Below, in pieces: positions 8,805-40,310 of a DNA stretch of 64,000 bases. The notes beneath the pieces were generated by a model. That model worked only from the letters and a program-made list of their open reading frames with translations, was not told the origin of the DNA and ran no database searches. A program made the position numbers and the translations under genes. Position 1 is the first letter of the stretch. Each line of letters begins with the position of its first letter. Origin of the DNA: a virus; the IMG/VR virus record IMGVR_UViG_3300010883_000007, positions 32,001 to 96,000 of that record; one strand, given 5' to 3'.

Positions 8805-9086
8805 TCACTTTACTAAATATGACGGATGATCACTGAGATCTCGTCGTCGGTTGATAATTTCTTTCTCAGAGGGTCGCCAGCCAGTATTCCATCGACCCAT
8901 ATTGGGCTGGACGAAGTGCAACTCACAGTCCCGGCAGCACTCAACCCTATAATATGCCCTTACGTCATCTGTATCTCTCAATGCTAACTCACACACAGGA
9001 CAATCAAGGGGTACCCAATCGGTGTCTGCGTCGGCCTCGGCGATAAGAAACCCCTGATCGTGAACTCTGGTCCTTGACTCACTCAC
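8805..9086 (-). CDS. Small Cys-rich (CPVC...CCRDC) putative Zn-binding protein
   Basis: Two CxxC pairs. The likely start is the GTG overlapping the upstream stop rather than 9125. Confidence 0.55.
   Translation of the reverse strand: MSESRTRVHDQGFLIAEADADTDWVPLDCPVCELALRDTDDVRAYYRVECCRDCELHFVQPNMGRWNTGWRPSEKEIINRRRDLSDHPSYLVK
8813..8820 (-). promoter_or_regulatory. Candidate late promoter ATATTTAG upstream of the terminase operon
   Basis: Identical to the copy at 75-82; 26 nt before the ATG at 8786. Confidence 0.55.
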
Positions 9087-12000
9087 AGATAACCACAGCA
9101 TTCTTCTCCCGCTGGGAGATCTCAATTATATTGTCTACAGCATCCTTCACAGCATCAACATGTGATATTACCAGAATGTGCTTAAACCAGCGTCGGAGAG
9201 AATCGAGCAGTCGAGTACACGCCTCAATATTCATCTCATCTAGAGCACCAAATCCCTCGTCGATGATGAGGAGATCTGTCTTGGGGAGGGAGCTAACATT
9301 AATAAGGGCTACACGGATTGCGAGGGATGCCATCATCTTCTCCATACCACTGGCACACTCAATAACTCTGCGTGAGTCGCCGTAATCAATGTAGATATCC
9401 ATGTCGTTCGTTCCGGCTTCAGCCTCAAGTTCCACAGTGAAGCCCACAACGCCTTGGAGAATCTTTGAGATCTCCTTATTAATCGAGGGGAGCTGAGATG
9501 CCATTATCTGAAGGGGAATGCCCTTCTTGGAAACAGCCCCCAGGAGGAGCTCGTACATCTTCCACTGTTCAACCAACTCACTGTATTTCTCCTTGTCCTT
9601 CTTATGGAGGGCCATCTCCGCGTCGAGATGGCCGATGGATTCAGTGAGCTTAATGCGTTGCGCGTCGAAGCCGTTAATCTTGTCGTTGATCGTATCCATT
9701 TCCTGCCGGGCTGCGCTGACCTTTTGGGCCTCAGTGGATGTAGAAACCCGGAGTCGCATGCCTTGGAGTTCTCTATCTGCAGCATCGATCAGATCCTGGA
9801 GAACTTTCTTTCGATTGTTCACCCTCGTCAAGTCAAGTCGCTGGTTGGAGAGTTTCAACACAAGATTGTTCTCACGGGTCAGAATCTTATCGTACCTCTC
9901 GATCTTCTCTGTAAGATTCTCCCTCGTTAAGACCTTCAGCGACTTTCTCGATGCTTTGACCTTGTCCAGCGACTCTGTAACTAAACGATCCTGATTATCT
10001 AGCCGCTTCTTGTTCTCGTGGGATGACTTGATGAACTTACAGGTGGGAAATGTGTCACCACACGGAACTTCTTTAAGCAACTTAATAGATTTCTTCTGGG
10101 TCTTGAGAAGCGTCTTTTCTCTCTCGTGAGTGTGACTCAGTTCTACCAAAACACGCTCGAGATCCTGCTGTGCGTCGCGTCGCTGTCGAAGATCGTCAAT
10201 TGGAAACTGATCCTTCACTGTACCAATCGATTTCAGAGTTGACTCAATTTCCCTAATCTTTCCTAGTGAGGTCTGGGATTTGTCTTCCATCCCGTCCAAC
10301 TGTGTTCTAGAGACTACAAGTCCTGATTCCTTCTGACTCACGTCGTCCTCAGTCACTAAATCTTTGTTAGAATGTGTGGCAAGAGCAACTGTGATCTCCT
10401 GAAGCTGCTTTCGATGACGACTGATATTTTCCTCAATCTCACGACGTTCCTTCGCATTCTTTCGCTTGAGTGTGTGCTTCTCAGCTATAAGTGTATCCCA
10501 GTCTCTATCTGGGACGTTTCCCAGGATACTCTTTAGCTCAGAGGAGTCCTCCTTGGCAAGATTTAGAACATCATCAAATATATTGAGATCGAGAAATTTG
10601 GTGAGAATGGCCTTTCGCTGGGTTGCCTTGTGCCTGATGAAGTTATTCATCTCTCCCTGACTTGCTAGCGATGTCATTAGAAAGTCGTCGGCAGTTCCCA
10701 CAATTTGTCTAAGGGTCTTTTCTGTCTCCCGCCTCTGAGCACCGTTCATGTCGACTATCTGGTTGTCTGCCTCATCGATCTCACTCAAGTTGAGGTGAGT
10801 CACTGCATTCTCGTCTCCTCGGCGGGAGGTCTTTCGAACAGACTGCCTCTCAACGAGGTATCGCTTTCCGTTCGCGGTGAGAAAGACTCTTCCAAGACAG
10901 TATCCCTTTCGCATATTAATAATGTGAAGGTTCTTGACGGGCCCGCGGTCTGTAGTATTGAAGAGGGAATACATCATAGTGCCAGGTATAGATGACTTCC
11001 CAGCACGATTCTTGCCAAAGAGACCGAGAATCCCGCCCAGGGCATCAAAGTTAATGATATTTCCCTTGCCGTACGAGAAAGTATTATCAAACTCCATCCT
11101 CTGTACTGACCACTTGATGTTTCGAACAACATCTGTCTTGGATGCGGGCATCACGTATTTAGCTATCAGCCCTTCCAGTCTTTCCCACTGCTCGTCTGAG
11201 ATATCTATTTCTGAGTAATATTCCCTCATCAGGCGAACATGGGTGTTAACATCTCGGAGATCCTCTGTGAAAAAGTCGCCGGCAGCGGTCTTGATTGTGG
11301 ACACGTCAATAGTATGATCATGCTTAAAGACTATCTCTGTGGCATGCTTCTGATTCTTGAGTGCACTGTGGAGGTGCTTTATCTCTGCCTGGGAGATCTG
11401 ACTGTCTGTGCGAACCCTAAACCTTGATAGATTGGGATGTGCCATGGCGCGCGAGACTGTGTCTTTTACATTTCCCGCCCAATCGATCGTGACAAATGGG
11501 CACGAGTGAGGAATCTCGTAGAAGGTGCTGGTGAATGTATCCTTATCCTCAATCTCCCAGAAGAGAAATCCCTTGCCTGGGTCCTCACCATAATTCTGCT
11601 GAATTGTCGATCCGGGATAGGCCACTCGCTTCTCATCGTCCAGATACTGCAGCTTGTGAATGTCGCCCAGGAAGGCAAAATCAAAGTCATCAAAGAATTC
11701 CAGGTCGACGTCACCCTCAATATCCCAATTAATATCGGTTGTTGATCCCTGAACACCTCCGTGGAAGGTGGCTATATTAATCTCACCTGGGACTGGCTTC
11801 ACGTCTGGCCATGTTTCCTCATCAAAACACGAGAAAACACACCAGTTATAGCCTGGAACACCAGTGGGATAAGCCCCGGAGGTCTTATAGAGGTGGAGAT
11901 TGGGATTATCCAGAGCATTAATAATGGGTGATATCGCATCCTGTCGGTGCTTATTCATTATCAGACCATCGTGGTTTCCCAAGATTATGTGGGTCGGAGC

Positions 12001-12222
12001 AATGTCCGCCATCTCTGAGAACCACCACGAGAGACAGTCTATTACCTCCGGCGAGATACCCTGTGTCTTGGAGTGAACAATGTCCCCTCCCACAAAGATG
12101 GCGTCCAGCTTCAGTTCCCTGAAGGTCTCGAACATCTGGCTGAAAGCCTCACGATACTCATCATGTCTCGTGAGGCCTCTCCAGTGTATATCACTTAAAT
12201 GGGCACACCTAAATGTCACCAT
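9079..12222 (-). CDS. Fused Mre11/SbcD nuclease - Rad50/SbcC ATPase (gp47-gp46 fusion)
   Basis: N-terminal phosphoesterase motifs DIH, GGD, GNHD, HGG, GDIH. Then Walker A GKNRAGKSS, Q-loop, coiled coil with CGDTFPTC, signature ASGMEK, Walker B LLIIDEGFGALD, H-loop ISH. Confidence 0.93.
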   Translation of the reverse strand: MVTFRCAHLSDIHWRGLTRHDEYREAFSQMFETFRELKLDAIFVGGDIVHSKTQGISPEVIDCLSWWFSEMADIAPTHIILGNHDGLIMNKHRQDAISPIINALDNPNLHLYKTSGAYPTGVPGYNWCVFSCFDEETWPDVKPVPGEINIATFHGGVQGSTTDINWDIEGDVDLEFFDDFDFAFLGDIHKLQYLDDEKRVAYPGSTIQQNYGEDPGKGFLFWEIEDKDTFTSTFYEIPHSCPFVTIDWAGNVKDTVSRAMAHPNLSRFRVRTDSQISQAEIKHLHSALKNQKHATEIVFKHDHTIDVSTIKTAAGDFFTEDLRDVNTHVRLMREYYSEIDISDEQWERLEGLIAKYVMPASKTDVVRNIKWSVQRMEFDNTFSYGKGNIINFDALGGILGLFGKNRAGKSSIPGTMMYSLFNTTDRGPVKNLHIINMRKGYCLGRVFLTANGKRYLVERQSVRKTSRRGDENAVTHLNLSEIDEADNQIVDMNGAQRRETEKTLRQIVGTADDFLMTSLASQGEMNNFIRHKATQRKAILTKFLDLNIFDDVLNLAKEDSSELKSILGNVPDRDWDTLIAEKHTLKRKNAKERREIEENISRHRKQLQEITVALATHSNKDLVTEDDVSQKESGLVVSRTQLDGMEDKSQTSLGKIREIESTLKSIGTVKDQFPIDDLRQRRDAQQDLERVLVELSHTHEREKTLLKTQKKSIKLLKEVPCGDTFPTCKFIKSSHENKKRLDNQDRLVTESLDKVKASRKSLKVLTRENLTEKIERYDKILTRENNLVLKLSNQRLDLTRVNNRKKVLQDLIDAADRELQGMRLRVSTSTEAQKVSAARQEMDTINDKINGFDAQRIKLTESIGHLDAEMALHKKDKEKYSELVEQWKMYELLLGAVSKKGIPLQIMASQLPSINKEISKILQGVVGFTVELEAEAGTNDMDIYIDYGDSRRVIECASGMEKMMASLAIRVALINVSSLPKTDLLIIDEGFGALDEMNIEACTRLLDSLRRWFKHILVISHVDAVKDAVDNIIEISQREKNAVVICE

Positions 12223-13233: not shown

Positions 13234-13791
13234 CACGCCTGCAAAAGCCACAACATACGCGTCTGCCATATCATAACACCCGGGCTCCAGAATCTCCTGG
13301 CCTCGTCTAGGGCCGCTCTTAAGCACTTTGAGCGGCCACTGATAATCATCATCGAGACGATTGGAGACCCAGTCCAGGACCTGCTGCTTGGTTGTTTTCC
13401 CACAGACTGCTTCCTTCTGCAGACGGAGACCCACACTCTTTCTTGCAGAGTTCACATTAAGAAACTCAGGTCTTATCTTAAACGTCGATTCGCTCAAGTA
13501 TGAGACCACACCGTTAAATCTGGCCAAGGAAGCTAAGGTCTTGGCAGATGAAAAACCCCTTCGAAAACGCTGTAGATTCTCCTCAACGAACACCCGTTCT
13601 ACAGGATGTTGGCATTGCAACTCCTGGAGTACGTCTAGAACCCGCTGGGCCTTGCTGAAGGTATCTTTCCAACCACTTAGGTGTATACACCCCATTTCAA
13701 CCTTAGATACGCTCTGGTGTTCATCTGTGTATAGAACACACCAGCCAGTCTTAGAGGTAGAAATATCCAGTCCCAAACAGCATAACATCAA
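13216..13791 (-). CDS. RuvC-like Holliday junction resolvase
   Basis: LGLDISTSKTG, VFVEE and DMADA acidic catalytic motifs. Confidence 0.85.
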   Translation of the reverse strand: MMLCCLGLDISTSKTGWCVLYTDEHQSVSKVEMGCIHLSGWKDTFSKAQRVLDVLQELQCQHPVERVFVEENLQRFRRGFSSAKTLASLARFNGVVSYLSESTFKIRPEFLNVNSARKSVGLRLQKEAVCGKTTKQQVLDWVSNRLDDDYQWPLKVLKSGPRRGQEILEPGCYDMADAYVVAFAGVLNNNT

Positions 13792-16700
13792 TAATCGATC
13801 CTCAACCTAAAGAGATAACCATCTGAGTCCCTCTTCACAATGGGTTGGGCCAAGTTGGCCCTCCCTATTATATTAAAACTCTCATCGTGAAGATTTACAC
13901 TTGTAATGTAATTAAATTGGGACGCTGTCTCATTGGCATAGTCTGTGGGCTTAAGCGCTTTAAACGTCGGATTGGAGGAGGAATTGACAGATCCCTTGGG
14001 ACAGGGCACGTTTATCTCCAGAACGTGCACGTTGTGCTCGCCTTCGAAACTGGTCGTCCACTCATCAGCTCCGAAGATGGGGATGTTCGGTGTCTTCACA
14101 ACAACAATACCCTCCTCGTAGATGATATTGCCCACAGCGTTCCACGTGGCGTGCTTCGATAGGGAATCTGCCCGATAGAGGCCTCCGTGTCCGTCATCCC
14201 TGAGGGTCACTGCTAAAACACCCCCAGATCCGGTTACACTAGTGTCAGTTACCTGAAACGATCCGCGCCTAATCTGATTCCCATAAAAGAGGTTCGACAC
14301 ATCAAAGAATGCCACCTGATTTGAGGAGGGATCCTTCGTCCTATTCAGGATCGTCAGGATACCAGAGTTGGCTACCCCCGGATCCTCGGGTGGAGCACCC
14401 TCCAGCGAATTGGAAATGGAAACGTCGGTGTTATCCTTTCCTCCCGTGAATGCGGTCACTGTCCTATACAGGTTTGTGAGGTTGTGAGCTATAGCAGTAT
14501 TCCCTATAGTCCCCACTGCCCGCTGATTGAGGGTTACCACTCCGGCGTAATCATCGGTGTCGGTGGCATCTCTGCTGGCCAGGATTAGTCCTGCGTGTCC
14601 GGTGGATCCGTTGACAGCAGATACAAAATTGTCGTAAACAGTATCAGCATCAGAGCTGTTGGCATTGACTAACACCTTACCCCCCTGGACATCACCGGTG
14701 ACAGACTCGACCTCGTACACGAACCGATAGACCTTCGTCACTCTGTCATATGTGTTTGTCACCGCGTTCTTTCGTAATCCCGTTAGACGTATAGTTGCCT
14801 GATCAGCTGTCTTGGTTGGTGTGTAGATAATCTCTGCAGAGGCAGCCTGAGTTCCTATTCCCTGCCTTCCGCGGTTCTCGCTGGTGATATCGATTAACCC
14901 CTCCGGCAGGGATGCAGTGCTTACCATGTTCGAGAGGTTGATGAGACCGTAGTCAACATTTCCAGCGTCATTGACAAATCGATCGATCAGTGAACCGGAT
15001 ACCGGAACTTCGGCCCGGGTGCCGGACTTGAGAAGACCGAATGATGGACTGAACCTTCCGTTGTCACACGGAAGGACTGTGAGATTTCTCTTTCTCAGGG
15101 AAGCATTTCGGTAGAGCCACAGGTTACACAGCTCAGCCGTGTTGGTGGTCACATCAATTGTCGATCCTGTTAGATTGAAGAGACGGGGATAAAGACCGTT
15201 AACAAACTCTCGGGTGAAGTTTGGAAGGTTCAACATGTGACCGCCGACGCCGAATGACAGGGCAACGTTGAAGGGGTCATCTGTGGTTGATCGAACTGTC
15301 TGGAACGGCGTCTGCATCACCTCCCGCTCCTTGGTCTCCTTCACAAAGAAAGGGGGCACGTAGAAGATCAGGTCAGTCGGAAGGGGATCAGGGCCCGACT
15401 GGGCAGACAGGGCAATCTGTTGCAGAGAGTGGTAGGTATTGAATATCTTGAGATCGTGGATCTCAGCCCTCAACGGGTGCGAGAACCTCACCTTGTGTTC
15501 TGCTATATCATTGTGTGTGGCATCCACATTGGACATGTCGTACGAGTCATTCGTGAACATGCTGGTAACGCCCTCACGGTGGGCAGCATTAGCGTTGAAG
15601 AACTGTGCCACAACTCCCGAGCCATCCAGGGTACCATTGTTGGGACCGTCGTAGAAATTACCCACAAAGACAGCGTCCGGATCACCAATCGGAGGTTCGA
15701 AAGCCTGGGGCATCACTGAAGCTGATGGTATTAAAAATGTCGCATCCTCCTTGCCGTCAATCACGAACGATCCCGTGCCGCTATTGACTGAGGCTCCCCA
15801 CCGAATGGCGACATGATGCCAGTGATTCCTCATGAGCGCGTTGTCCTTCGAGAAGAACACAAGGTCGCTGGGAACTTCCTGGGTGCTACTGCCGAGAGTT
15901 GGAAAGGGCTGGCTCACATTATTAGACGTGACCGCAGTGTTCCTGGGGGATGTCTCAGCGCTGTTGCTTAGCTGCAACATTATCCTGAATCCATCAGTCT
16001 TGCCGTTAATATCCTTCGACGAGCCCGAAATCAGGCTCACTGCGTACGAGGAAGACATGTGAATGATCGTGCCCGGATGATACACTGTTCTTCCAGGCTC
16101 AGTGCCACCGGTAAATGTAGACGGAACGTTAACACTAGTACTTGCGTTCCATGCCGCGGCGTTGTCTAGGGTAATTGCAGTATTACCCGCACTTGTTTTG
16201 ACAGCACCTTGTGTGAGTAAGACTACTCCCGCAGAGGGATTTGTAGCTACTATATCCAGGGATGATTGTGCATTAATCTTTGCAGCAAGATCTGCAGCAG
16301 TTCCCGTACCGCCGCCGCCGGCGGCAGCAATTCCACTTACAGCAATATCTCCGAGTCCCCCAGTGAAAGTTGAGGGGACATTTACACTGCACACGCTGTT
16401 CCAGTGAGCAGCGTCATTTACAGTGATTGTAGTATTACCACTTCTACCAGTAGTTGAACCTTGGGTAATGGTTATTGCAGCAGTAGATGCTGATGCTGTC
16501 ATATCTAGCGCAGACTGAGCATTAATCTTTGCAGCAAGATCTGCAGCGGTTCCTGTGGCGCCGCCACCTGCAGCATAGATTCCGTTGAGTGCAATATTGC
16601 CTGCAGAGACACCGTTGTTCTCGTTATCAACTTCAAACGTAACTGAGGTTCCATCACCATCAATCAAATTGATTGTACTGCCTTCGTTAGGTTTGTCAGT

Positions 16701-17471
16701 TAGCGTAAAGGTGGCTGCTGGTGGTTTAAGACCATTATTCTCGTTGTCTATTTCAAAAGCAACCGAAGTTCCATCGCTGTCTAGCAAGGTGACAGTGGAC
16801 TCTTCAGTAGGCTTATCTGAGAACGTGAATGTTGCGGTAGAAGAGAATTTCGAGTCGTTCGGTTCAGACGAATACTTCGGATTGATATAGAAATCGAACG
16901 TGAACTCCTTGTGGGGTGAGTACATGAAGTTGTCGACCTCATTGGTCTCCCCGGAAGAAGTGGCTGCCGGGTATATCATCACAGATCCCGTGGGAGTTGT
17001 GTCGGACGTGAAGAAGTGCAGGGTGTGGTAGTTGGGATACGCCCACTGCAAGCTTGGGTACGTGCTCCGGTACGTGGGAAAGAGGACCTTCCTCACAACA
17101 TTCTTACGAAGAGTGTTGCTGGTCAACTTGAAGGAGGGCTCGAATCGAATGACTTCCACCTTCTTCTGGCGTGCGGGTGAGGCGGAGGAGGAGTTGACTG
17201 TCTCTAGATACTGACTTAGATTACCAGAAATATCAGATGAGCCTCGGGAATCCCTTACTGTCTGGACCCTCAGTTCCTCAATATCAGCTGTTCCCCAGCT
17301 ATCACCACCGTAGTCCTCGAGGGGTTGTGCCTCCTTCTCAATAGTCGAGGCACGAGAGAAGACTTTAACTGACCCTGTCAGTCCTGAGGAAGATGATGTG
17401 AATGTCCGGCGGGGGTTGGTTGTGAGAGTAAATCGTTCAAGATTCTCTATTGGTATTGGTATAATTGCCAT
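13788..17471 (-). CDS. Large tail/baseplate protein with LamG-like domain, three inserted FTGG modules and C-terminal tail-collar-like segment
   Basis: LamG-like WHHVAIRW...FVIDG...IHDLKIFN; C-terminal ITSVNLHDESFNIIGRANLAQPIVK...FRLRIDY shared with 17510-18790. Confidence 0.7.
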   Translation of the reverse strand: MAIIPIPIENLERFTLTTNPRRTFTSSSSGLTGSVKVFSRASTIEKEAQPLEDYGGDSWGTADIEELRVQTVRDSRGSSDISGNLSQYLETVNSSSASPARQKKVEVIRFEPSFKLTSNTLRKNVVRKVLFPTYRSTYPSLQWAYPNYHTLHFFTSDTTPTGSVMIYPAATSSGETNEVDNFMYSPHKEFTFDFYINPKYSSEPNDSKFSSTATFTFSDKPTEESTVTLLDSDGTSVAFEIDNENNGLKPPAATFTLTDKPNEGSTINLIDGDGTSVTFEVDNENNGVSAGNIALNGIYAAGGGATGTAADLAAKINAQSALDMTASASTAAITITQGSTTGRSGNTTITVNDAAHWNSVCSVNVPSTFTGGLGDIAVSGIAAAGGGGTGTAADLAAKINAQSSLDIVATNPSAGVVLLTQGAVKTSAGNTAITLDNAAAWNASTSVNVPSTFTGGTEPGRTVYHPGTIIHMSSSYAVSLISGSSKDINGKTDGFRIMLQLSNSAETSPRNTAVTSNNVSQPFPTLGSSTQEVPSDLVFFSKDNALMRNHWHHVAIRWGASVNSGTGSFVIDGKEDATFLIPSASVMPQAFEPPIGDPDAVFVGNFYDGPNNGTLDGSGVVAQFFNANAAHREGVTSMFTNDSYDMSNVDATHNDIAEHKVRFSHPLRAEIHDLKIFNTYHSLQQIALSAQSGPDPLPTDLIFYVPPFFVKETKEREVMQTPFQTVRSTTDDPFNVALSFGVGGHMLNLPNFTREFVNGLYPRLFNLTGSTIDVTTNTAELCNLWLYRNASLRKRNLTVLPCDNGRFSPSFGLLKSGTRAEVPVSGSLIDRFVNDAGNVDYGLINLSNMVSTASLPEGLIDITSENRGRQGIGTQAASAEIIYTPTKTADQATIRLTGLRKNAVTNTYDRVTKVYRFVYEVESVTGDVQGGKVLVNANSSDADTVYDNFVSAVNGSTGHAGLILASRDATDTDDYAGVVTLNQRAVGTIGNTAIAHNLTNLYRTVTAFTGGKDNTDVSISNSLEGAPPEDPGVANSGILTILNRTKDPSSNQVAFFDVSNLFYGNQIRRGSFQVTDTSVTGSGGVLAVTLRDDGHGGLYRADSLSKHATWNAVGNIIYEEGIVVVKTPNIPIFGADEWTTSFEGEHNVHVLEINVPCPKGSVNSSSNPTFKALKPTDYANETASQFNYITSVNLHDESFNIIGRANLAQPIVKRDSDGYLFRLRIDY
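16104..16842 (-). repeat. Nested duplicated module (one copy inserted inside another)
   Basis: Protein order is A1-A2-B2-B1; 29-bp exact DNA repeat at 16270-16298 and 16519-16547. Confidence 0.85.
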
Positions 17472-30500: not shown

Positions 30501-33500
30501 CTACTCAAATGTCAGCATAACACTGGTTCCTGAGGCGTCGTCAGGGTTAGTCGATCGATCCCGGGTTAGTCCATCAAAATACGGAAGTGAGGAGGTGCAG
30601 AAAACATCTAAGTTCTGACTGTGTGTGGATTCCGGATCTACGTTAACAGCTCGAGCGCCCTCATCGTCGGGTCGAGAAGTGAATGTTACACTAACAGGAC
30701 CTGACTCTACACCGTCTTCAGTAAAGAAGCGAGTAAATCTACGGGCCTCGAGGAGATCTCTCACTTGACCGAACTTATTGTGGCGATACACAGCAGAAGA
30801 GTACATGGGTCGAATATTGGCCACTCCATACTTGAAACCTCTCAATATAACTTCAGATCCAACACCTATGTGCATACCCCCAGTCACATGGGTCGAAATA
30901 TCGCGGTTAACCGCTGTCTGGACTGTTGTATAGCCCACGGGTTCTTTAGTTTTCTCCCTCTCGCTATACCAATAACGATAGTTGTTGTTAGCGGTGTTCC
31001 ACGTGTAAGAACCCACTGGAGGAGCAATATAAGACTTACCATTGTGGGTGCCACCGTCGCGCTGCGCTAGGTACTGGTCGATGTAGTAGACAAATTTGGA
31101 GTCCGACGAGTGCGGATACCCCCACGTGATCTGGACAGTAGTTACTGTTGATACACCGGATCTCACAAAGGATCCTGAGACAGGAATGGTCGCATTGCGA
31201 TCCACAAGAATCCTCTGCCACTCAGTTCCGTCTCCCAGTAACCCTCCGCCAGTGAAGGATGTTGCTGTAATATTAGTCACAGTCGATGTGATTGTCGTGT
31301 TACTCTGACTACCCCCAACCTTCTGAGTTAGGGACATAGAGCCTTCTCCGTTGGCTGAGGGAGCTGTCCCCACAGCAATTACAGAGTCTGCGGTGTTGGC
31401 ATTGTGCCCGTTGGTGTGATTGATTGCAGTCTTTAGCAGGGTTAAATAATCTCCCTGGTCCATGGCGCCAAGATCTGTTCTTATTGCAATACCTCCCACA
31501 GCAGCATCACCCTCAGATAGGGTGAATCCGTCGCCGAAGTCACCCACTGCAAGAACATCTCCTGTTACTATTGAGTTACCCTTTCCACTTGGTCCGATGC
31601 CAATAAGCACATACTTCTTTGTTACTCCAGCAGACGAGGTGATAGTGACTGTCTGTAGCTCGTTTGCAGACGTAAATGAGTTGAGATCGCCGTCTGCACA
31701 ACCCAGGGATCCGGCTGCCCTGGAGCTATTGGGATGATCAGATGAGATCGTCATTTGAGTGTCTGAGGAGATTGCAGTGACTATTGCAAATGTGCTTGAT
31801 CCCAGCTCGCCGTACTGACTATGCGTAAAGTTAGATGCAGTAATATTCTGTGCATTAGCATCGACGGTAATAGCTGTGTTCATGGATCCTGAGGCGCCGG
31901 CGACCTGCTGATACAGCGCAAGTGTGTCTGTACCGGCGATGGCGTAAATATTAGAGACTCCATGCCCGTTGGCAGAATCTATACACGTCTTGAGCGAGGC
32001 AACTGCTGTCGCAAGACCAGATGCATTATTGAACACAAGAGGAGCGCTATTATCAGACCAGATTGTCGCAGTTAAGTTAGTCACATCGTCGGGGGGTATA
32101 AAACCAGAACCTCCAGTGCCGACGGTCGCTTGGGCTAGTGTCATCGTGTTGCCTGATATCGAACAGGTAATCTTGGGGTTGTGGCCATTCTCGTGGTCAA
32201 TGGCAGTCTTTAGCTGGGTTAAATAATCCCCCTGTGTAGACAGACCACCGCCCGTCAGGTTAATTGCAACAGCAACTCCACCTATGGCCAGATCATCATT
32301 TCCATAGCCTGATACTAACTTGTTACTTCCATAATCAGACCCTGCTGCCAACACATCACCGGTGGCCACCGAGGTTGCCGCGTCATCCACTAATACATAC
32401 CGCTTGGACGTGCCATCAGTTGAGACAAGTGTAATTGCCTGAAGTTCAGACATACCTGATGCTGCAGCTGCATTCGTAACTGTCACATCACATGAAGCCA
32501 CTGTTGTTGAGCCAGTGCCGGCGGGAGAGAGGTTCTCGGCAGTACCTGCCCTATAGTACTTTACTGTTGCCGCTGTATCGATGATGGCTATCGTGTCACC
32601 GGTAATAGGGCCAACTCCTCCAAACTGAATTGCGGCAGAAGATCTGGGTCCGTGTGTGCCAGTGCCCCCTTCTGGAGGGTTCGATCCACTCAACGCGATA
32701 CGATCTCCTACCTTTATCTCTTTGGTAAACTTTGTGTTGATCCCAATAATCGTATCTGATTGATTGGTACTTGTGTGACCCTTAACGTGTATGGGTTCTG
32801 CATTCTTGTGTTGAAAGGTCTTAAATGCGGGCATACCAAAAAAGCCATCGCCAAAACCATAGTATAAGGAGTTGAGCATGGTTATCCCATCTATCTCATT
32901 AAATGTGAGATCACCGCCTCGTGGCCCTATTAGAGCGAGACCTGCGTGAGAGACTGACTCTGTCACAGAGGATGAGAGTTCAGAGTATATGGGTCGACTT
33001 CGGCCGTCGCCTAAGCTGGCCACTGGAGCACCGCGCTGCCCGTCCACATCAGTCATGTCAATATCTTTAGTTCTCAAGAGATAGGACTGTAACCCTAACG
33101 AGCTCAGGAAAGTCTTAGAGCCTGAGATTGCTATGTGACTTATGGCGCCGGCGCGTATCACTTTACCCGTAGAGCCTGTGACCACATTAAAGGTTTTGTT
33201 ACCCTTCCGCTCTGCCGCTAGACGTTTCACCTTCGAGTACTTTGGCTCAAAGGGAAATGAGAATGGAAGATCCCTGTCAAATATTTTATTCGGGCCGTCA
33301 ATTGACGATCGAGGCTCAGATATTACTAAAACGTTAGCTTTGGGATCTAGCATTCCCGCGTTGGGTGTTAAGCTAAGGCCAAAAGATATCTCTGTGCCTG
33401 CGTCATCAAAGAACTTTGAGTCGACAATGGCCTCGACTTTGAGACTCCTACCATCAAATAGGGAGTCATTGTTGATGTCTAATATACCAGCAATTGATGG

Positions 33501-36500
33501 AAGCAGGGTATCATAGTATCGCTCCCGGTGGTCGACCAACTTGAGGCCACGAAGGAAAGAACCGGTAACGCCTGCTGTTCCCTCAGACACCCTTCCAATC
33601 ACCTTTCGGTGCACACCCTTATTCTCAAGGAGATAAGACTCACTTCCGGATGTGGGAAGGGAACCTGTCATCATGTGACCAGCAATCACATTTTCCAGAT
33701 AAGAACCCGAGTAGGCAAAGGATGGCTCTGTGTCATACTGATCATACACGTCTGTGCCCAGAAGAAGCGTCTCGTGTATTGCCTCAGAAGTCAGGGGCTG
33801 ATTACTTGACGGTGTAATCTCCTGATCGCCTCGAAGCACAGATCCATACAACACTAACTTTCCAGCCCCAGGGTGCAACTCGAATGCTGGAGCGGCCAAA
33901 TCTCCGGCGTAATTCAGCGGAGACTGGAATCCAAAGACTAACTTATCTCCCGGCATTAACATGTAGGGGGAGGTCACTCTGTCTGTTTTTGGCGCCTCTA
34001 GTCTGAACGTGTCTTGGTAGGCATCTACACTATACGCACGCTCGAATCCGCTAAACTCTCCGCCTCGAATGGCGCGTCCCGTGGGTATACCCAGACCGTT
34101 ACGAGAGCCATTGATGAACCTGATAAGCAACGAGTCGTTGTCAGTGTCAGGTGTGGTGTCATTGAGTCCGGGGATTTCTATGTAATTCCCGCCCAGATCC
34201 CATGCTGAAGATCCTGGAGCTAATGCGGGAGCCCGAACTGGGGCAGCAAGTGTTAGTCGCTGGTGGGCCCAGGGAGAGGCAGTGTCAACAACAAGATCAC
34301 AAAATGATCGAAGGTCTTCAACATACTTCTCAAACACTGTGGGATCATTCACATTTTTATCGGTGGTGAAGGTTCCTATCGTGGAAAATGTGACCAGGTC
34401 CCTTACAGTTCCCACCTCATCGTACTTGACAGGAATAATCTTTCGAATGGTCTGGGCTGTGTTGTCACCTATTCCTCCTGCGTCGCGGCCATCGGCAAAA
34501 GTGTTGAAGAGTCTGTTACTATAGAAGTCTGTTCCGTGTACAGAGGCAGCTGTTAGCCCGTTAGTCACTTGTCTGTTTCCCGAGGATCCATCTGCCAGCT
34601 GTGTCAACCTGAGAATGCCGCCGGCTCGACTTACAAGAAGCTTCCCATAGTGACCGCTGTCGTTCTCAATACACTTCTGAAGTTGTAGAGCGATCTGGGC
34701 CGAGGTTCCTGTGCATGCAAACTCCATCTTAGAATGTGCAAAATTCGTATTATTAGCTGCATAATACACTTTGGTTGTGTTGTCTGTCGACGTCAGTGTG
34801 ACTGTCTCGCCGACAACAGGAACTTGGGCGTTGGTGTGTGACAGCTGTGAAATATAACTCGAGGTAATAGACACTGCTGTTGTGTGTGCTTCCCCCGGTG
34901 TTAGGATTATTAGCTGGGCCCCGTTCGCCTGGGCCGGCACATCGCTCACCAGAAGCTTTCCGTTGTGACCGTTGGCATGCTCGATGGCAGCCTTGAGCTG
35001 GACCAGGAAGGCATTCTGTGTTGCTGGGGTTCCCGTTAAATCAATAGTCACAGCGGTACCGGATTGACTGGCGGTGGAGCCTCCCCCCACATCTGTTACA
35101 CCACTGGTCACCACATCGCCGGTTGCGACTGCCGATGTGGCATCGTCCACGATAATATAACTTTTGTTAATGCCGGCGGCTGAGATGTAGACACGCTCGT
35201 TTTTGGTCATTCCGCTAACTGCATCACCATCTACTACTGTTAGTGTGCTAGTCCCAAAAGTTATTACAGTTTTAGCCTGAGTCGCTTTGTCAGCGACGAT
35301 AATCTCTGCATCGTTATTGATTCTTGTTACCCGAGCAGGCCTAGAGAGAAGGTTCCCCATTAGCTGTATGCTGTCACCCACCCTAAGCTCACTGGTGAAC
35401 TTTGTTCCCGTTCCGGCAACCACCATTGATCCGGACACAGTCTTCGCAGCAGTTCCGGTTATGGTGTCATAGTCATACCCCTCACCAGAGCCATAGGCAG
35501 AGGAGTGTGGTGAAAGCTGCCACACAGTGGGTATTGTTCCGGAATATGGCATCTCAATAGTTTCTTTTCCGGCGCCGGCTTCAGGGTGTTGGTCCCCCAA
35601 TTTTGTTAAAACTGCTCGATTCTCAATTCCTGGATCTATATTTGCCGGTCTTTGGTTTAGAATGAAAAATGATATCCCCTCGCCGTACTTGGCCGAGGGT
35701 GTAGAGGTTTGTTTGTCCTTGAGTGATGCTGAGAACTCGTACACTATCTTCTCGACCAAAAACGGCCGGTCGATCAAACTAGATACATCAAAGACCTGTG
35801 ATCCAGTGGCCGCGAACTTCGGGTGAAAGGGAAAGCCGAATGTATTAGTTGGCTGAGCGAACCCTGTCTCAATGGGTACCTTCTTGCCCTCAGACTTGAA
35901 CCCCGGGGCGGAGGCATTGGCGGTGGACGAGGCCTCGGCAAGCTGCCAATGACTTTGACCAAACCCAACCATCACAGTGTCTAACAGATTTCTTAATCGT
36001 GCACGATCCTCAGAGAGACCACCTCGTTGAGATTCGGGTATATGAGTATCCGGCTCCGGCCATGGCTTGTGTGAACCTACCCTCTCCCACTTCTTCTCAT
36101 CAAAGTTGAAGTACACCATTGGGCCGGAGTCGGTCTGCCCCCCAGACTGTGCGTTCTTTGCAGTGTATTTTAATGATGTGGATAGAATTTTTGTCGAGGG
36201 CGTCAGGTCGATCTCTAGCCTGTGCTTGTCCCACAGTGGGGCAGATAGACCCGGGCCCACTATCGTTGGGTCAGATCCCGTCGAGTAGAAGGATCCACGA
36301 AGGGAGGGGTCTACAGTAAAGTTCGAATCCCATGTTAGGTCCGGATCATCACCCTTCTTCGACCCAGAAACACGGTCAGAAGACATCACCGGTGTGTGAC
36401 CAAACTGTGCAAAGAGATTAACCTCCCGATACGGCTCTAAATTCTGGGGATTTTCGCTTTTTCTGCGAGGATCATACGAGCTCCTGTGGGATCGTCCCGG

Positions 36501-39500
36501 TCCAAAGAGAGTAGTTGTGGTGTTGGGTGTTGAGAACGGTATACCGGTGTGACCCCGGGGAAGGTTAAATGGAAAGTGGAGACCGTCTGTTGATCCCGTT
36601 AGAATTCCGAAGCTTCCACCACTGAAACCCAACGACTCCTTCCCAGGATCCCTTATAAGGTCCCCTCGGCCTCCCTCGATTCCCACCACACCTGGATCCA
36701 ACTGTCTCCACTTGTGAGACCTTTGACCCACCTCGATCGTTCCGGTGACATTAGTCATAACGATTCGAGTGTTGCCCGAGGTTCCAGGTCGCATCTGAGT
36801 CAGATTGACTGTCTTATTCTGTGTCTCTGCATATATTCCCAGCGTGCCTGTCAGTTCGTTCACCTTCCTGGCAAACTCGGCCGCGGTCTGCTGGGGGGAG
36901 GAATACAGCAGGACGGGCACCTGGCTTGGCTTTCCACCTCTAAATTTGTGCGAGTAGATGGTACCGTAGACGTCTCTGTTTGATCCCAGCGAACCATCTG
37001 GGTGAGTAAAGTTAATCACGGTGTTACCGTAGTCACCAAACACATCCAGTGTTACCTGAGTTAGGCTGACGTTAGCGCGGGCTGCTGAGGCTGCTATCTT
37101 GCCAGCATGACCGGCGGCGGCGTTGATACATGCTATCAAGCTAGTGGCCAGGGCAGTTCTGGTTGCGCCGGCGAAAGTGGACCCTGTAGTTAACAATTGG
37201 GAGGAGGACTTTGTGTACGTCCGGCCAGTCCCATCAGTTGAGAAAATTGTAATCGTCGTGTTATTATCGGGCACACTGCGAAAGAAGATTCGACCAAACG
37301 CGAGGCTCGCACTACGTACTGAGAGCTCGTACTTTGAATTCGCGACGAGGACGAACTCTTTCACCCCTGCCGGAGAGGCATCAAGGCCCTGTGAGCCTGT
37401 TAGGGCCAATCTTCCCCATGCCATTCCTCGTTTGCTCTGGAGGAATTTTATATTGGCTGTCGCGTAGCCAGAGAGAAACTCTGGAGTGTCACTGTCATCA
37501 AATGATGTGGTATACCTTCCTGTGAATCCTCGGGAGGTTACCAAGCGTGATGTTGTGGGATAAGCTCCGAGCTGATTGTCCCTATCTCTAATCTCCACAC
37601 GCGGGGGGAGGCCGATAAAGCCTGACTGCTTCTTATACTGGCGGACACCCTTGAGTCCGGCGTAGTAGAGGGCACGTACGTCCTCAGTACTGAGCTGCTT
37701 GGACCACACAGCAGGCTCGAACATCTCACCGTTGAGAGAATCAGAATTAGACGAGCCATCTCCTCGAAGATGGCCCAGGATGAAGTCTAACCCCTGGTTG
37801 GTGCCTCCCACAAAATTAGCTGCAGTGGCGTTCGTCGCGTTATCGGTTATTGTTTTGTTCCCGGTCGGGCCTGGTACCGCCTGGGTTAGGGTCAGTTTTC
37901 CGGCACCATCGTTGTGGACGTGTATCTTTACACTGCCTCCAGTAAAATTAGCCACAGTTACATTGGTGGCATCGCCTGTAACTACGGTGTTTCCACTGCT
38001 GCCAGCCACTGACTGGGTTAGTGTGATCGCCTGATTGCCGTCGGCCTGGGACGGAACAGATCCCACCGCAATCTTGCCGTTGTGGCCGGCTGCGTGCTCA
38101 ATTGCGGCCTTGAGCTGGACCAGATACGCATTCTGTGTGTGCGCTGGCAGATTGATTGCAACAGCAATTCCGCCGATGGCTGTGTGACCTGCTGCAAGAG
38201 TGCTAGCGCCGTAGTCAGATCCCGCCGCTAGCACAACACCTGTTGCCACCGATGTTGCGTCCGCGTCCACCAGAACGTACTTCCTGAGTGTCCCATCAGC
38301 TGAGGTTATTGTGATCGTCTGCAGCGCCGACATGCCTGATGCTGCGTCCCCGTCTGTGACTGTTACAGTGGTCGAAGCTTTGATCCCGTGACCGTTGGCT
38401 GTTTCGATGCACGCCTTGAGAGAGGTTGCGGCGGCCGCGAGGGTGGCTCCGTAAAACTTGGGTGGATCCGTCGTGAGATCTTGGGCTGTGGCAGTGGTGT
38501 TTGCGTAATATACTTTTGTTGTTCCGTCTGTCGAGATAATTGTGATTGTTCCGGCGTTGGCAGGCACACCCGTAAAAGTTATAGTGCCCTGGGCACCGTG
38601 TGCCGCAGACATTAGAGTGGGAGAGGGCGTTGTGTAGTCAGGTGTTACACCCGTGCCGCCGGCAATTAGGGAATTATACCTGCCCTCCTGGCCTGCAGTC
38701 TTGGTGTATCGATCACCGTTGATGTATATCTTGACTCCGGAGCCTGCGTATGATGTTCCGGTGGCGCTGTAGTTATTGACACCGTTCTTCCAGCAGTCAG
38801 CAAGAAGGTCAGTTCCTGAAGATCCATCGTAGGTGACTGCAACATGCACCCAATCACCTGTTGGGATCTGGGCAGAAACATCATCTGTATAAAATAGAAG
38901 TGCCTGTGTAGATAGCGGTCCACTTCGAAGCTCAAACTTAAGGCCAAGCGAGGAATAATAGAACTTATGACCTGCGGTCTCGCCGGCGGCGATCCCGGCG
39001 ACACCGGCTACCACGGGAGGCGACAGCCCGAATATACCAAAAGTTGTATCTGTTGTCTTCAGCCACACCGCAAAGGAGAAGGGTCCGTCAACCACCTTGT
39101 GAGGATCCTTACCCGTATCGACAAAGTGAAAGTCCTTGTGGGCCGCGGCACTGATGTACGAGTCTGAAGATGTGAACCGGCCGGCAAGGACGGGCGGATC
39201 AGACTCAACGTGGGATCCGGAGTGGGGTGACACCCGAACATCGTGGCCTGGACGTGTGCCCGAGGCAAAGGTTAAGCCGGGGACAGATGTGCTGGTGGGA
39301 TCGCTGTTGCCTCCCGTGAAGGACGTTGCTGTTACACCGGTGAGACCCACAGTGACAGTGGTATTACCACTGTGTCCCAGTGTTACCTGAGTCAGGGTTA
39401 GTACCCCACTTCCGTTGTCGACCACAGTAATCTTACCATTGTGGCCGCCGGAGGCATCTTCTATACATGCCTTAAGCGAGGTGGCAGCGAGTGCTGCAGT

Positions 39501-39914: not shown

Positions 39915-40310
39915 ATTCTACTTCTTGAGACCCCCGAATGCTATGGAGTCTGTGCCCTTATCCATACCAATATACACAAAACCTGCTCCGGCGGAAACAT
40001 GGTTTCTCTTGAGACGGTCTTGAGCTGAGCCCGTCATGGCTGCCAGAGCAGTCGTCATTATGCCGTCTGCCAGACCTCCGGACTCACCTCCTGTGAAGGA
40101 TGTTGCGACAGCATTTGTTAGGTTATCAGTCACAGTGGTGTTTCCTTCAGGACCGCCGTCTGCCTGTGTTAGGGTTAACAGAGAGGTTCCGGATGGGTTA
40201 ACCACAGTTATCTTTCCGTTGTGCCCAAGGGCTGTTTCGATGCACGCCTTGAGGGATACAGCAGCGGCGATCGGAGTGGCTCCGTAAAACTTGGGTGGAT
40301 CCGTCGTGAG
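38397..40310 (+). repeat. Dispersed collinear DNA repeat between two different tail genes
   Basis: 24-bp (38397-38420 = 40230-40253) and 35-bp (38443-38477 = 40276-40310) exact matches at a constant 1833-nt offset. Confidence 0.9.

What the first reader, a model, noticed from the sequence alone, without database searches (positions are those of the whole stretch)
16104..16842. A module inserted inside a recent copy of itself within a LamG domain
Seen: the order is N-part1 (STATFTFSDKP...EIDNENNG), then a complete inner copy at ~16718-16356 (AATFTLTDKP...EVDNENNG...VNVPSTFTGG), then C-part1 (DIAVSGI...VNVPSTFTGG). This A-A-B-B order cannot come from a simple tandem duplication, which gives A-B-A-B. 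The two copies share a 29-bp exact match (16270-16298 / 16519-16547). This pair is a distinct subtype with no GH motif, and by eye its codons look more A/T-ending than the flanks. Inference: a recent import followed by copy-into-self insertion.
Basis: seen in the sequence. Interest (0 to 1): 0.8.

Follow-up and report, generated by a model that had tools for sequence, protein, structure and literature searches.

The report
Display module nested inside its sibling
A marine phage virion protein carries two copies of a ~120-residue surface module, one sitting inside a loop of the other like Russian dolls; the layout is real and recurs in other phages, but the two copies are old relatives and this kind of nesting is already known in tail sheaths and flagellins.

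Summary
In the 1227-aa ORF 13788-17471 (-) the order is A1 (aa 212-247), A2 (252-287), B1 (288-372), B2 (375-456). The 29-bp exact match and the A/T-ending codons are real.

The nesting reading is supported:
- A2+B1 is the canonical contiguous unit in over 40 other proteins.
- AlphaFold models it as one compact domain (pLDDT 92), and again inside the AABB model.
- A-A-B-B recurs in at least six other phage proteins. One holds A-A-B-B between the halves of a different subtype.
- Contigs from three independent marine runs bridge every junction.

"Recent copy of itself" is not supported. Outside the 29-bp island, codon choice between the copies is random (26 of 65 same codons, 24 expected). Each copy is as close to modules of other phages (up to 77%) as to its partner (64%).

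Import is supported:
- 102 of 121 homologues have only a 9-aa loop at this site.
- GC3 is 0.34 against 0.59 for the rest of the gene.
- dS to the nearest relative is lower in the insert than in the flanks.

The nesting therefore probably predates the import, or arose from two separate imports.

The fold resembles the protruding domains of tail sheaths and FliD/flagellin outer domains, where nesting is known. The scan had noted this same stretch before, in other windows of this genome. Verdict: real, moderately interesting, a new variant of a known kind.

The parts
13788..17471 (-). Host gene: a 1227-aa virion-associated protein with a LamG (ConA-like) domain. It belongs to a large family of ~815-aa proteins of uncultured marine phages.
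   Evidence: ORF and translation. 314 homologues, most 790-860 aa. Laminin_G_3 lies above the Pfam cut-off in orthologues and spans the insertion loop. Phage context: T4-like portal, TerL, SbcCD, primase, RuvC.
16839..16904 (-). LamG strand FTFDFYINPKY (aa 190-200) and the upstream half of the loop, SSEPNDSKFSS (aa 201-211).
   Evidence: Alignment with 120 homologues.
16731..16838 (-). A1: N-terminal three-strand part of the outer module (aa 212-247).
   Evidence: HMM A 82 bits; 74 bits against an HMM built from single modules only.
16719..16730 (-). Linker LKPP (aa 248-251): entry junction of the inner module.
   Evidence: Bridged by an independent contig, X3 record 10.
16356..16718 (-). Inner module A2+B1 (aa 252-372): a complete, contiguous ~121-aa domain.
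   Evidence: Full-length matches (2-121) at 55-68% identity in many proteins. AlphaFold pLDDT 92, pTM 0.87. The same compact domain appears inside the AABB model (model residues 37-162, Z 9.1).
16350..16355 (-). Linker LG (aa 373-374): exit junction of the inner module.
   Evidence: Bridged by X2 record 6.
16104..16349 (-). B2: C-terminal strand-helix-strands part of the outer module (aa 375-456).
   Evidence: HMM B 149 bits; 118.9 bits against the single-module HMM.
16080..16103 (-). Downstream half of the LamG loop, TEPGRTVY (aa 457-464). It is followed by the LamG strand HPGTIIHMSSSY.
16270..16298 (.). 29-bp island in B2, identical to 16519-16547 in B1 (codons of AADLAAKINA).
   Evidence: Exact match, P about 4e-4. 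Also present, with one mismatch, in relative L001. Not conserved at DNA level in the modules of other loci.
16519..16547 (.). Partner of the 29-bp island, in B1.
14439..14834 (-). Third, distant A-B module in the same protein (aa ~880-1011, 'ins2'). It is contiguous, has the NGH motif and has normal GC3 (0.53).
   Evidence: Shared with a sister group of homologues (P0010, P0012, P0014 and others).

Best explanation
The stretch encodes two members of one ~120-residue module family, arranged as a Russian doll. Each module has three beta-strands (part A), then a strand, a long helix and further strands (part B). The outer module is split: A1 and B2 are its two halves. A complete inner module (A2+B1, with linkers LKPP and LG) sits in its surface loop between strand 3 and strand 4. 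The pair in turn sits in a short loop between two strands of the LamG domain of a phage virion protein. How it arose (inferred): an in-frame insertion of a whole module-coding segment into the permissive A|B loop of a resident family member. The pair, or the two modules one after the other, came into this gene lineage from phages with lower GC3. Because codon choice between the copies is fully randomised while both keep the foreign composition, the nesting is old and probably predates the import. Only a 29-bp patch was later homogenised, most simply by a short gene conversion. What it does (inferred from the fold and from where relatives sit): it forms a two-tier projection on the virion surface. 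The inner module is held at the tip of the outer one and serves as an adhesion or decoration domain. This is comparable to the protruding domains of contractile sheaths and the outer domains of flagellin and FliD.
For: Unit and order:
- HMM mapping gives A-A-B-B in the window and in two independent relatives.
- The inner A2+B1 matches end to end (positions 2-121) in 40 or more proteins of unrelated lengths.

Nesting is a real process in this family:
- A-A-B-B recurs in P0122, P0126, P0127, P0128, P0129, P0130 and in loci L002-L005.
- In P0130 a contiguous module of another subtype (aa 116-242) reappears split as 362-406 + 672-737, with an A-A-B-B stack between the halves.
- In all six other A-A-B-B proteins, the first A and the last B are jointly the more divergent units. 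This pairs A1 with B2.

Fold:
- The inner module alone gives pLDDT 92 and pTM 0.87. The AABB model gives pLDDT 89 and pTM 0.76.
- In the AABB model, all the top structural matches (29 of the first 29 rows) map to residues 37-162, which is A2+B1 as one domain.

Not an artefact:
- Independent contigs bridge all junctions.

Foreign to the gene:
- 102 of 121 homologues have a 9-aa loop at this site.
- GC3 is 0.343 against 0.591.
- In other phages the module's GC3 follows that of its host gene, so low GC3 is not intrinsic to the module.
- dS between the window and L001 is 0.21 in the insert against 0.54-0.62 in the flanks.

Old:
- pS is 0.91 (A) and 0.70 (B). The same-codon count is 26/65 against 24 expected.

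Fold relatives:
- Sheath protruding domains 9cb9_A 87-179 and 8kee_A 95-187 (Z 8.7-9.1, rmsd 2.1-2.8, 84-91 residues); FliD D2/D3 and FliC (Z 6-7).
- Nested domains are documented for T4 gp18 (PMC3004832) and for flagellin and FliD (PMC8306008).
Against: - I could not read the model's coordinates. That A1 packs against B2 is therefore inferred: from high pLDDT on both, from the inner domain using A2+B1, and from two weak matches spanning residues 1-245.
- The structural Z scores of 8-9 are only at the level where the tool says common arrangements begin. No sequence-level link to any solved structure or Pfam family was found.
- The module tree is star-like. Whether the two modules are sisters (a self-copy) or came from different donors is undecided (AU p 0.51).
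- The composition argument for 'nesting before import' assumes that amelioration and synonymous divergence run on similar clocks.
- The function is inferred from fold and context only.
Confidence: 0.75

Rival explanations
1. One reading: one module was imported into the LamG loop, and a copy of that same module was then inserted into it in situ (a self-copy after import).
For: A tree that constrains the window's outer and inner modules to one clade is not rejected and is even 1.0 log-likelihood unit better (AU p 0.51). One clade of all outer modules across proteins is disfavoured (p 0.028). There is no positional orthology with other A-A-B-B cassettes, so an independent nesting in this lineage is possible. 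Both window modules are about equally close to the family consensus.
Against: Synonymous sites between the copies are saturated, yet both copies still have the foreign GC3 of 0.32-0.44. By identity, each copy has many closer relatives in other phages than its partner: 77% and 70% against 64%. No single-copy intermediate was found among 120 homologues or in IMG/VR.
Confidence: 0.25
2. Two independent partial tandem duplications, A to A-A and B to B-B, with no insertion of a whole module.
For: This also yields the order A-A-B-B, with two novel junctions. Tandem duplication does occur in this family: A-B-A-B in P0124, P0125 and L006.
Against: It needs two events with matching boundaries, repeated in six or more other proteins. 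It does not explain the heterotypic case in P0130, where the halves of a different subtype flank the stack. It does not explain the joint divergence of the first A and the last B. The model folds A2+B1 as one canonical domain.
Confidence: 0.06
3. Assembly artefact: a repeat-induced misjoin in a metagenome assembly created the A-A-B-B order.
For: The copies share a 29-bp exact word. In one run a unitig ends at 16720/16722, at the A1|A2 junction.
Against: The same order is found in three independent assemblies at 88-94% identity. Contigs of other studies bridge host|A1, A1|A2, A2|B1, B1|B2 and B2|host with 0-1 differences. The copies are only ~65% identical in DNA, too different to confuse an assembler. 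The reading frame stays open through 1227 codons.
Confidence: 0.01
4. An intertwined double domain. The four segments form one larger fold or a strand-swapped pair (A1 with B1, A2 with B2), not a host-guest pair.
For: I could not inspect coordinates. Both domains share one fold, so a swap is sterically conceivable.
Against: Structural matches to single-domain relatives cover model residues 37-162 contiguously, with 85-98 aligned residues. This is as in the isolated inner module. The contiguous A-B unit is the rule elsewhere.
Confidence: 0.05

Closest known systems
T4 gp18 tail sheath and other contractile sheath proteins with protruding domains (PhiTE 9cb9, cyanophage A-1(L) 8kee)
   Same: The module's predicted fold (a small beta-barrel plus a helix, ~90-120 residues) gives the best structural matches to the sheath's outermost inserted domain (Z 8.7-9.1). 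gp18 is built by nesting: domain I is inserted in II, and II in III (PMC3004832). This phage's own sheath-like gene carries one copy of the same module subtype.
   Different: In gp18 the nested domains have different folds. Here the guest and host are members of one sequence family (64% identical). The carrier is a LamG domain, not a sheath core. No sequence-level similarity to solved sheaths was found.
Flagellin outer domains (D2/D3) and the FliD cap D2-D3 head
   Same: They share the hairpin topology: a continuous middle segment folds into the distal domain while the proximal domain is made of N- and C-terminal parts (PMC8306008). They are surface-exposed, hypervariable and tolerant of insertions. 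FliD and FliC give structural matches of Z 6-7.3 over 93-101 residues. In Campylobacter FlaA, D2 and D3 are structural homologues of each other (PMC8306008).
   Different: There is no Pfam hit to flagellin families, including the flagellin IN motif that the B part recalls. The phage modules are clearly related in sequence, and the nesting recurs many times, up to three levels.
Phage Ig-like and other decoration domains added to structural proteins
   Same: These are accessory, horizontally exchanged surface domains on virion proteins, dispensable for assembly and proposed to aid adhesion (discussion in PMC9230969).
   Different: The fold is different (not an Ig sandwich). These modules are inserted into loops, including loops of their own kind, rather than appended in tandem.
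Ordinary tandem domain repeats (A-B-A-B)
   Same: The same module family also forms tandem pairs (P0124, P0125, L006).
   Different: The order here is A-A-B-B, which no simple tandem array contains.

Membership tests
Nested (host-guest) domain insertion | The guest domain is encoded by one contiguous segment flanked by the two halves of the host domain. | tested here: met
   A1 | A2+B1 | B2 by HMM mapping. A2+B1 matches contiguous modules end to end in 40 or more proteins.
Nested (host-guest) domain insertion | The guest folds as an independent compact domain. | tested here: met
   AlphaFold pLDDT 92 and pTM 0.87 alone. The same domain is recovered at residues 37-162 of the AABB model. This is a prediction, not an experiment.
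Nested (host-guest) domain insertion | The two halves of the host come together to form one domain. | tested here: inconclusive
   A1 and B2 have pLDDT 83-97 in the AABB model. Two weak matches span residues 1-245. In six other proteins the first A and the last B diverge jointly. Coordinates could not be inspected.
Nested (host-guest) domain insertion | Uninterrupted versions of the host domain exist. | tested here: met
   There are many contiguous A-B modules. In P0130 the same subtype occurs once contiguous and once split around a stack.
Sheath protruding domain / FliD D2-D3-like fold | Structural superposition over most of the domain with a score clearly above background. | tested here: inconclusive
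   Z 8.7-9.1, rmsd 2.1-2.8, 84-91 of 121 residues to 9cb9_A and 8kee_A; Z 6-7.3 to FliD and FliC. Foldseek E is only 0.01-0.02. The tool notes that a best Z of 7-8 is common without homology.
Sheath protruding domain / FliD D2-D3-like fold | Detectable sequence homology to solved members. | tested here: not met
   A profile of 39 modules against all PDB sequences gave no match at E <= 10.
Pfam Laminin_G_3 (PF13385), for the carrier domain | The Pfam model matches above the gathering score, and the match spans the insertion loop. | tested here: met
   The window protein itself gives no Pfam hit, presumably because the domain is interrupted. The orthologues do: P0023 residues 193-319 score 29.4 bits against a cut-off of 27.6, with its loop at 208-216. 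P0029 and P0003 also pass.
Pfam flagellin hook IN motif (a lead from memory for part B) | A Pfam model match. | tested here: not met
   There is no Pfam family at E <= 1 on the whole protein, and none on eight other module-bearing proteins.
Simple tandem duplication | The units alternate A-B-A-B. | tested here: not met
   The order is A-A-B-B.

The most novel reading that the evidence does not exclude
This module family may be a self-nesting, horizontally mobile display cassette. The loop between its strand 3 and strand 4 would be a preferred docking site for further copies. Phages could then lengthen virion surface projections recursively (A-B, A-A-B-B, A-A-A-B-B-B) by repeated, independent insertions. 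The low-GC3 copies in two genes of this genome would mark recent traffic between phages of different composition. If so, nesting is an evolutionary mode on a par with tandem duplication for this family, in which it is about as frequent as tandem pairs among the 73 representatives examined.
Probability: 0.25. Interest if true: 0.65.

Novelty: new variant of a known kind. Interest (0 to 1): 0.45.

Why it matters
Nested domain insertion is a known building principle of tail sheaths, flagellins and FliD. There it is seen as a finished structure between unlike or only structurally similar domains. Here the guest and host are clearly related in sequence. The same architecture recurs in several unrelated phage proteins, up to three levels deep, and single, tandem and nested states coexist in one family. 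That makes the evolutionary process observable: which loop accepts a guest, how often, and from what source. It also defines a widespread marine-phage surface module with no Pfam or PHROG entry. The module sits in sheath, LamG-carrying and giant virion proteins, and is a candidate adhesion or decoration domain and a natural loop-insertion scaffold.

Tried and rejected
- Pfam and PHROGs on the whole protein gave no family. PHROGs on four minimal homologues and four module-bearing proteins gave nothing useful.
- tblastn of the protein against 50,697 phage records gave no match.
- A profile of 39 modules against all PDB sequences gave no match.
- A BLASTP self-comparison printed no off-diagonal hits, which was a technical failure. 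It was replaced by Smith-Waterman alignments and HMMs.
I therefore obtained relatives' DNA with the search for related loci.
- One ancestral A-A-B-B cassette moving as a unit was considered. A clade of all outer modules is disfavoured (AU p 0.028), and there is no positional orthology. A 'KPxEE' signature that I first took as specific to outer modules also occurs in the single sheath module, so I dropped it.
- Selection for codon dissimilarity between the copies was considered, because pS was 0.9. Same-codon counts equal expectation (z 0.53), so this was rejected.
- Nucleotide-level conservation of the 29-bp island across the family, as a recombination signal, was considered. Other loci use different codons there, so this was rejected.
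- Low GC3 as an intrinsic property of the module was considered. In six other phage loci the module's GC3 tracks that of its host gene, so this was rejected.
- A target-site duplication of the 9-aa LamG loop (flanks SSEPNDSKF and TEPGRTVY) was considered. The sister group has an 18-aa loop, so insertion into the middle of a longer loop is simpler. This remains undecided.
- A search of IMG/VR with the N-terminal 203 aa for close relatives carrying zero or one module found only the contig of L001.
- The laid runs are Logan contigs. They cannot exclude rare variants with zero or one copy.
Full report
**What is there**

The finding lies in one long ORF, window 13788-17471 on the minus strand, 1227 aa. 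All large ORFs of the window are on this strand. Neighbours include a T4-like portal, a large terminase, a fused SbcD-SbcC, a primase and a RuvC-like resolvase. The window is bases 32001-96000 of a 104,452-bp virus record. The stretch occurs in seawater and marine metagenomes.

Alignment and unit HMMs give the following layout:

| Unit | Residues | Window coordinates |
|---|---|---|
| A1 | aa 212-247 | 16731-16838 |
| linker LKPP | aa 248-251 | 16719-16730 |
| A2 | aa 252-287 | 16611-16718 |
| B1 | aa 288-372 | 16356-16610 |
| linker LG | aa 373-374 | 16350-16355 |
| B2 | aa 375-456 | 16104-16349 |

A1/A2 are 69% identical and B1/B2 63%. The 29-bp exact match is at the stated coordinates.

**The unit is A-B, contiguous**

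I searched 1.84 billion representative proteins with the inner stretch A2+B1 (121 aa). This gave 73 hits, most matching positions 2-121 end to end at 45-68% identity, in proteins from 96 to over 4000 aa. Mapping the A and B HMMs on these hits shows A-B as the standard unit in more than 40 proteins.

AlphaFold with a 39-row alignment folds A2+B1 as one compact domain, with pLDDT 92.2 and pTM 0.87. The order of elements is three strands, a strand, a 15-residue helix, four more strands and a short helix.

**Nesting is real and recurrent**

The order A-A-B-B is also found in these proteins and loci:
- P0122, P0126, P0127, P0128, P0129 and P0130
- four IMG/VR loci (L002-L005), which encode ~359-aa proteins

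P0126 ends in a C1q-like head, as fibre-type proteins do.

In P0130, a contiguous module of a different subtype (aa 116-242) reappears in the same protein split into 362-406 and 672-737. The two parts are 53% and 62% identical to the contiguous copy. An A-A-B-B stack lies between them. This three-level arrangement cannot come from partial tandem duplications.

In all six other A-A-B-B proteins, the first A and the last B both score lower against an HMM of single modules than the second A and first B do. That is expected if A1 and B2 are the two halves of one split, more freely evolving module.

The AABB stretch of the window folds with pLDDT 89.2 and pTM 0.76. In a Foldseek-independent search, the first 29 rows, including every row with Z of 4.1 or more, align to model residues 37-162. 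That is A2+B1 as one domain, with the same relatives and scores as the isolated module. I could not read coordinates, so the A1-B2 packing is inferred.

Tandem A-B-A-B also exists in the family (P0124, P0125, L006), and there the two copies are sisters.

**Not an artefact**

The same layout is present in an ENA protein at 92% identity (P0002). It is also present in IMG/VR contig UViG_3300008954_000022 (L001, 93% identity).

Logan contigs of runs from other studies were laid on 15700-17300:
- X2 record 6 covers 16142-16720, bridging B1|B2 and A2|B1.
- X3 record 10 covers 16497-17045, bridging A2|B1, A1|A2 and host|A1.
- X3 record 9 covers 15700-16363, bridging B2|host.

These show 0-1 differences and no joints. 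Contigs cannot exclude rare variants.

**The carrier and the site**

The protein belongs to a large family: 314 hits, of which the best 120 were examined, most 790-860 aa.

In a 121-sequence alignment, 102 members have a 9-aa loop at this site, with consensus [TSK]x[DE]xxGxx[FY]. The loop lies between ..INP[RK]Y and ..GT[IL].H.SSSY. Only the window's protein and P0002 have ~264 aa there.

Pfam Laminin_G_3 passes its cut-off in orthologues and spans the loop. For example, P0023 matches at 193-319 and its loop is at 208-216.

P0058 carries a single, distant module in the same loop, so the loop has been used at least twice.

A sister group (P0010, P0012, P0014 and others) has an 18-aa loop here. 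It shares the third, distant module at aa ~880-1011.

**Age**

Nei-Gojobori pS is 0.91 for A1/A2 and 0.70 for B1/B2. Among 65 aligned identical residues outside the island, 26 use the same codon, against 24.0 expected from random draws (z 0.53). The copies are therefore old at the DNA level.

The 29-bp island is the exception: 9 of 11 codons are the same against 4.1 expected, and the run has P about 4e-4. It is present with one mismatch in L001, but it is not conserved in the modules of other loci. A short gene-conversion tract before the two phages split is the simplest reading.

**Origin**

Composition and divergence:
- GC3 is 0.343 in the insert and 0.591 in the rest of the gene. The insert is lower than all 496 windows of 245 codons in 26 other ORFs. 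Amino-acid composition explains only part of this (expected 0.464, z -3.9).
- The third module has GC3 0.53.
- The same genome has one more copy of this subtype (57% identity), inside a sheath-like 1147-aa ORF outside the window. Its GC3 is 0.233 against 0.564 for the rest of that ORF.
- In other phages the module's GC3 follows its host gene, so the anomaly is specific to this lineage and fits acquisition from lower-GC phages.
- Between the window and L001, dS is 0.21 in the insert (0.04 in A2) but 0.54-0.62 in the flanking parts of the gene. The cassette region was therefore shared or exchanged later than the rest of the gene.

Relationship of the two copies:
- The outer module is 77% identical to a module of P0126, and the inner is 70% identical to modules of P0123 and P0124. 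They are 64% identical to each other.
- The tree of 43 modules is star-like.
- Holding the window's two modules together is not rejected (AU p 0.51). Holding all outer modules together is disfavoured (p 0.028).
- There is no positional orthology with other A-A-B-B cassettes.

A self-copy is therefore possible but not shown. Both copies keep the foreign composition while being randomised against each other. For that reason I favour a nesting that predates the import, or two successive imports, over import followed by self-copy.

**What it resembles**

The best structural matches are as follows:
- The outermost inserted domains of contractile sheath proteins, PhiTE 9cb9_A 87-179 and cyanophage A-1(L) 8kee_A 95-187, with Z 8.7-9.1, rmsd 2.1-2.8 and 84-91 aligned residues.
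- FliD D2/D3 and Pseudomonas FliC, with Z 6-7.3.
- A domain of T7-like tail proteins.

Foldseek gives the same families at weak E-values. There is no sequence-level link to solved structures or to Pfam.

T4 gp18 domain I (98-188) is a six-stranded barrel plus a helix. It is inserted into domain II, which is itself inserted into domain III (PMC3004832). In flagellin and FliD, a continuous middle segment forms the distal domain between the halves of the proximal ones, and Campylobacter FlaA D2 and D3 are structural homologues (PMC8306008). Extra sheath domains are thought to aid adhesion or stability (PMC9230969).

The principle is therefore known. What is new is a sequence-related guest and host, recurring in several carriers and reaching three levels, in a module family without a database entry.

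**Function (inferred)**

This is a surface projection of a virion protein, with the inner module displayed at the tip of the outer one. Its likely role is adhesion or decoration. None of this was tested.

**Earlier notes of this scan**

Other first-stage notes on this genome describe the same stretch, the older third module, and module stacks in the 3137-aa gene. My HMM scan finds weak copies of the family in ORFs 30501-39914 and 39918-43073. This agrees in part with those notes. I did not check their nesting claims.

Noticed in passing
own genome outside the window: G000:C1:19479-19823 (-), locus L010: A sheath-like 1147-aa ORF (N-terminus MAELTFKSAGV...) carries one contiguous module of the same subtype, 57% identical to the inner module. 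Its GC3 is very low, 0.233 against 0.564 for the rest of the ORF.
   Followed up: partly
window 30501-39914 (-) and 39918-43073 (-): The 3137-aa and 1051-aa ORFs contain several distant copies of the module family (HMM bits 9-23). The 3137-aa ORF has them at aa ~94-190, 445-537, 878-970 and 1009-1057. The 1051-aa ORF has them at aa ~200-243, 347-440 and 893-985. Earlier notes claim nested stacks there; I did not check that.
   Followed up: partly
window 16611-16730 compared with L001: The divergence from the nearest relative is mosaic. A2 and its linker are 99% identical in DNA (dS 0.04), while the gene flanks have dS 0.54-0.62. A stretch at aa ~511-555 drops to 59-72% nucleotide identity.
   Followed up: partly
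homologues P0012, P0019, P0020 (site equivalent to window 14439-14834): In these homologues the third module itself holds a further ~55-aa insert with a G..Y.I...G.TDFT..GA....G..F.A.G motif. This is another case of an insert within an inserted module.
   Followed up: no
window 9079-12222 (-): A single 1047-aa ORF combines an SbcD-like nuclease (Metallophos, aa 5-190) with an SbcC/Rad50-like ATPase (aa 270-1044). This looks like a fused SbcCD.
   Followed up: no
window 16720-16722: In run X2 two Logan unitigs end and begin exactly at the A1|A2 junction (16720 / 16722). X3 bridges this point. The break may reflect a strain-level branch point at the junction.
   Followed up: no
homologues P0003-P0007, P0051, P0061, P0064 and P0006, P0007, P0037: The ~815-aa carrier family has at least two further insertion hot spots. 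One is N-terminal, where 430-570 aa are seen instead of ~200. The other is in the middle part, where 510-640 aa are seen instead of ~390. The cargo of these inserts was not examined.
   Followed up: no
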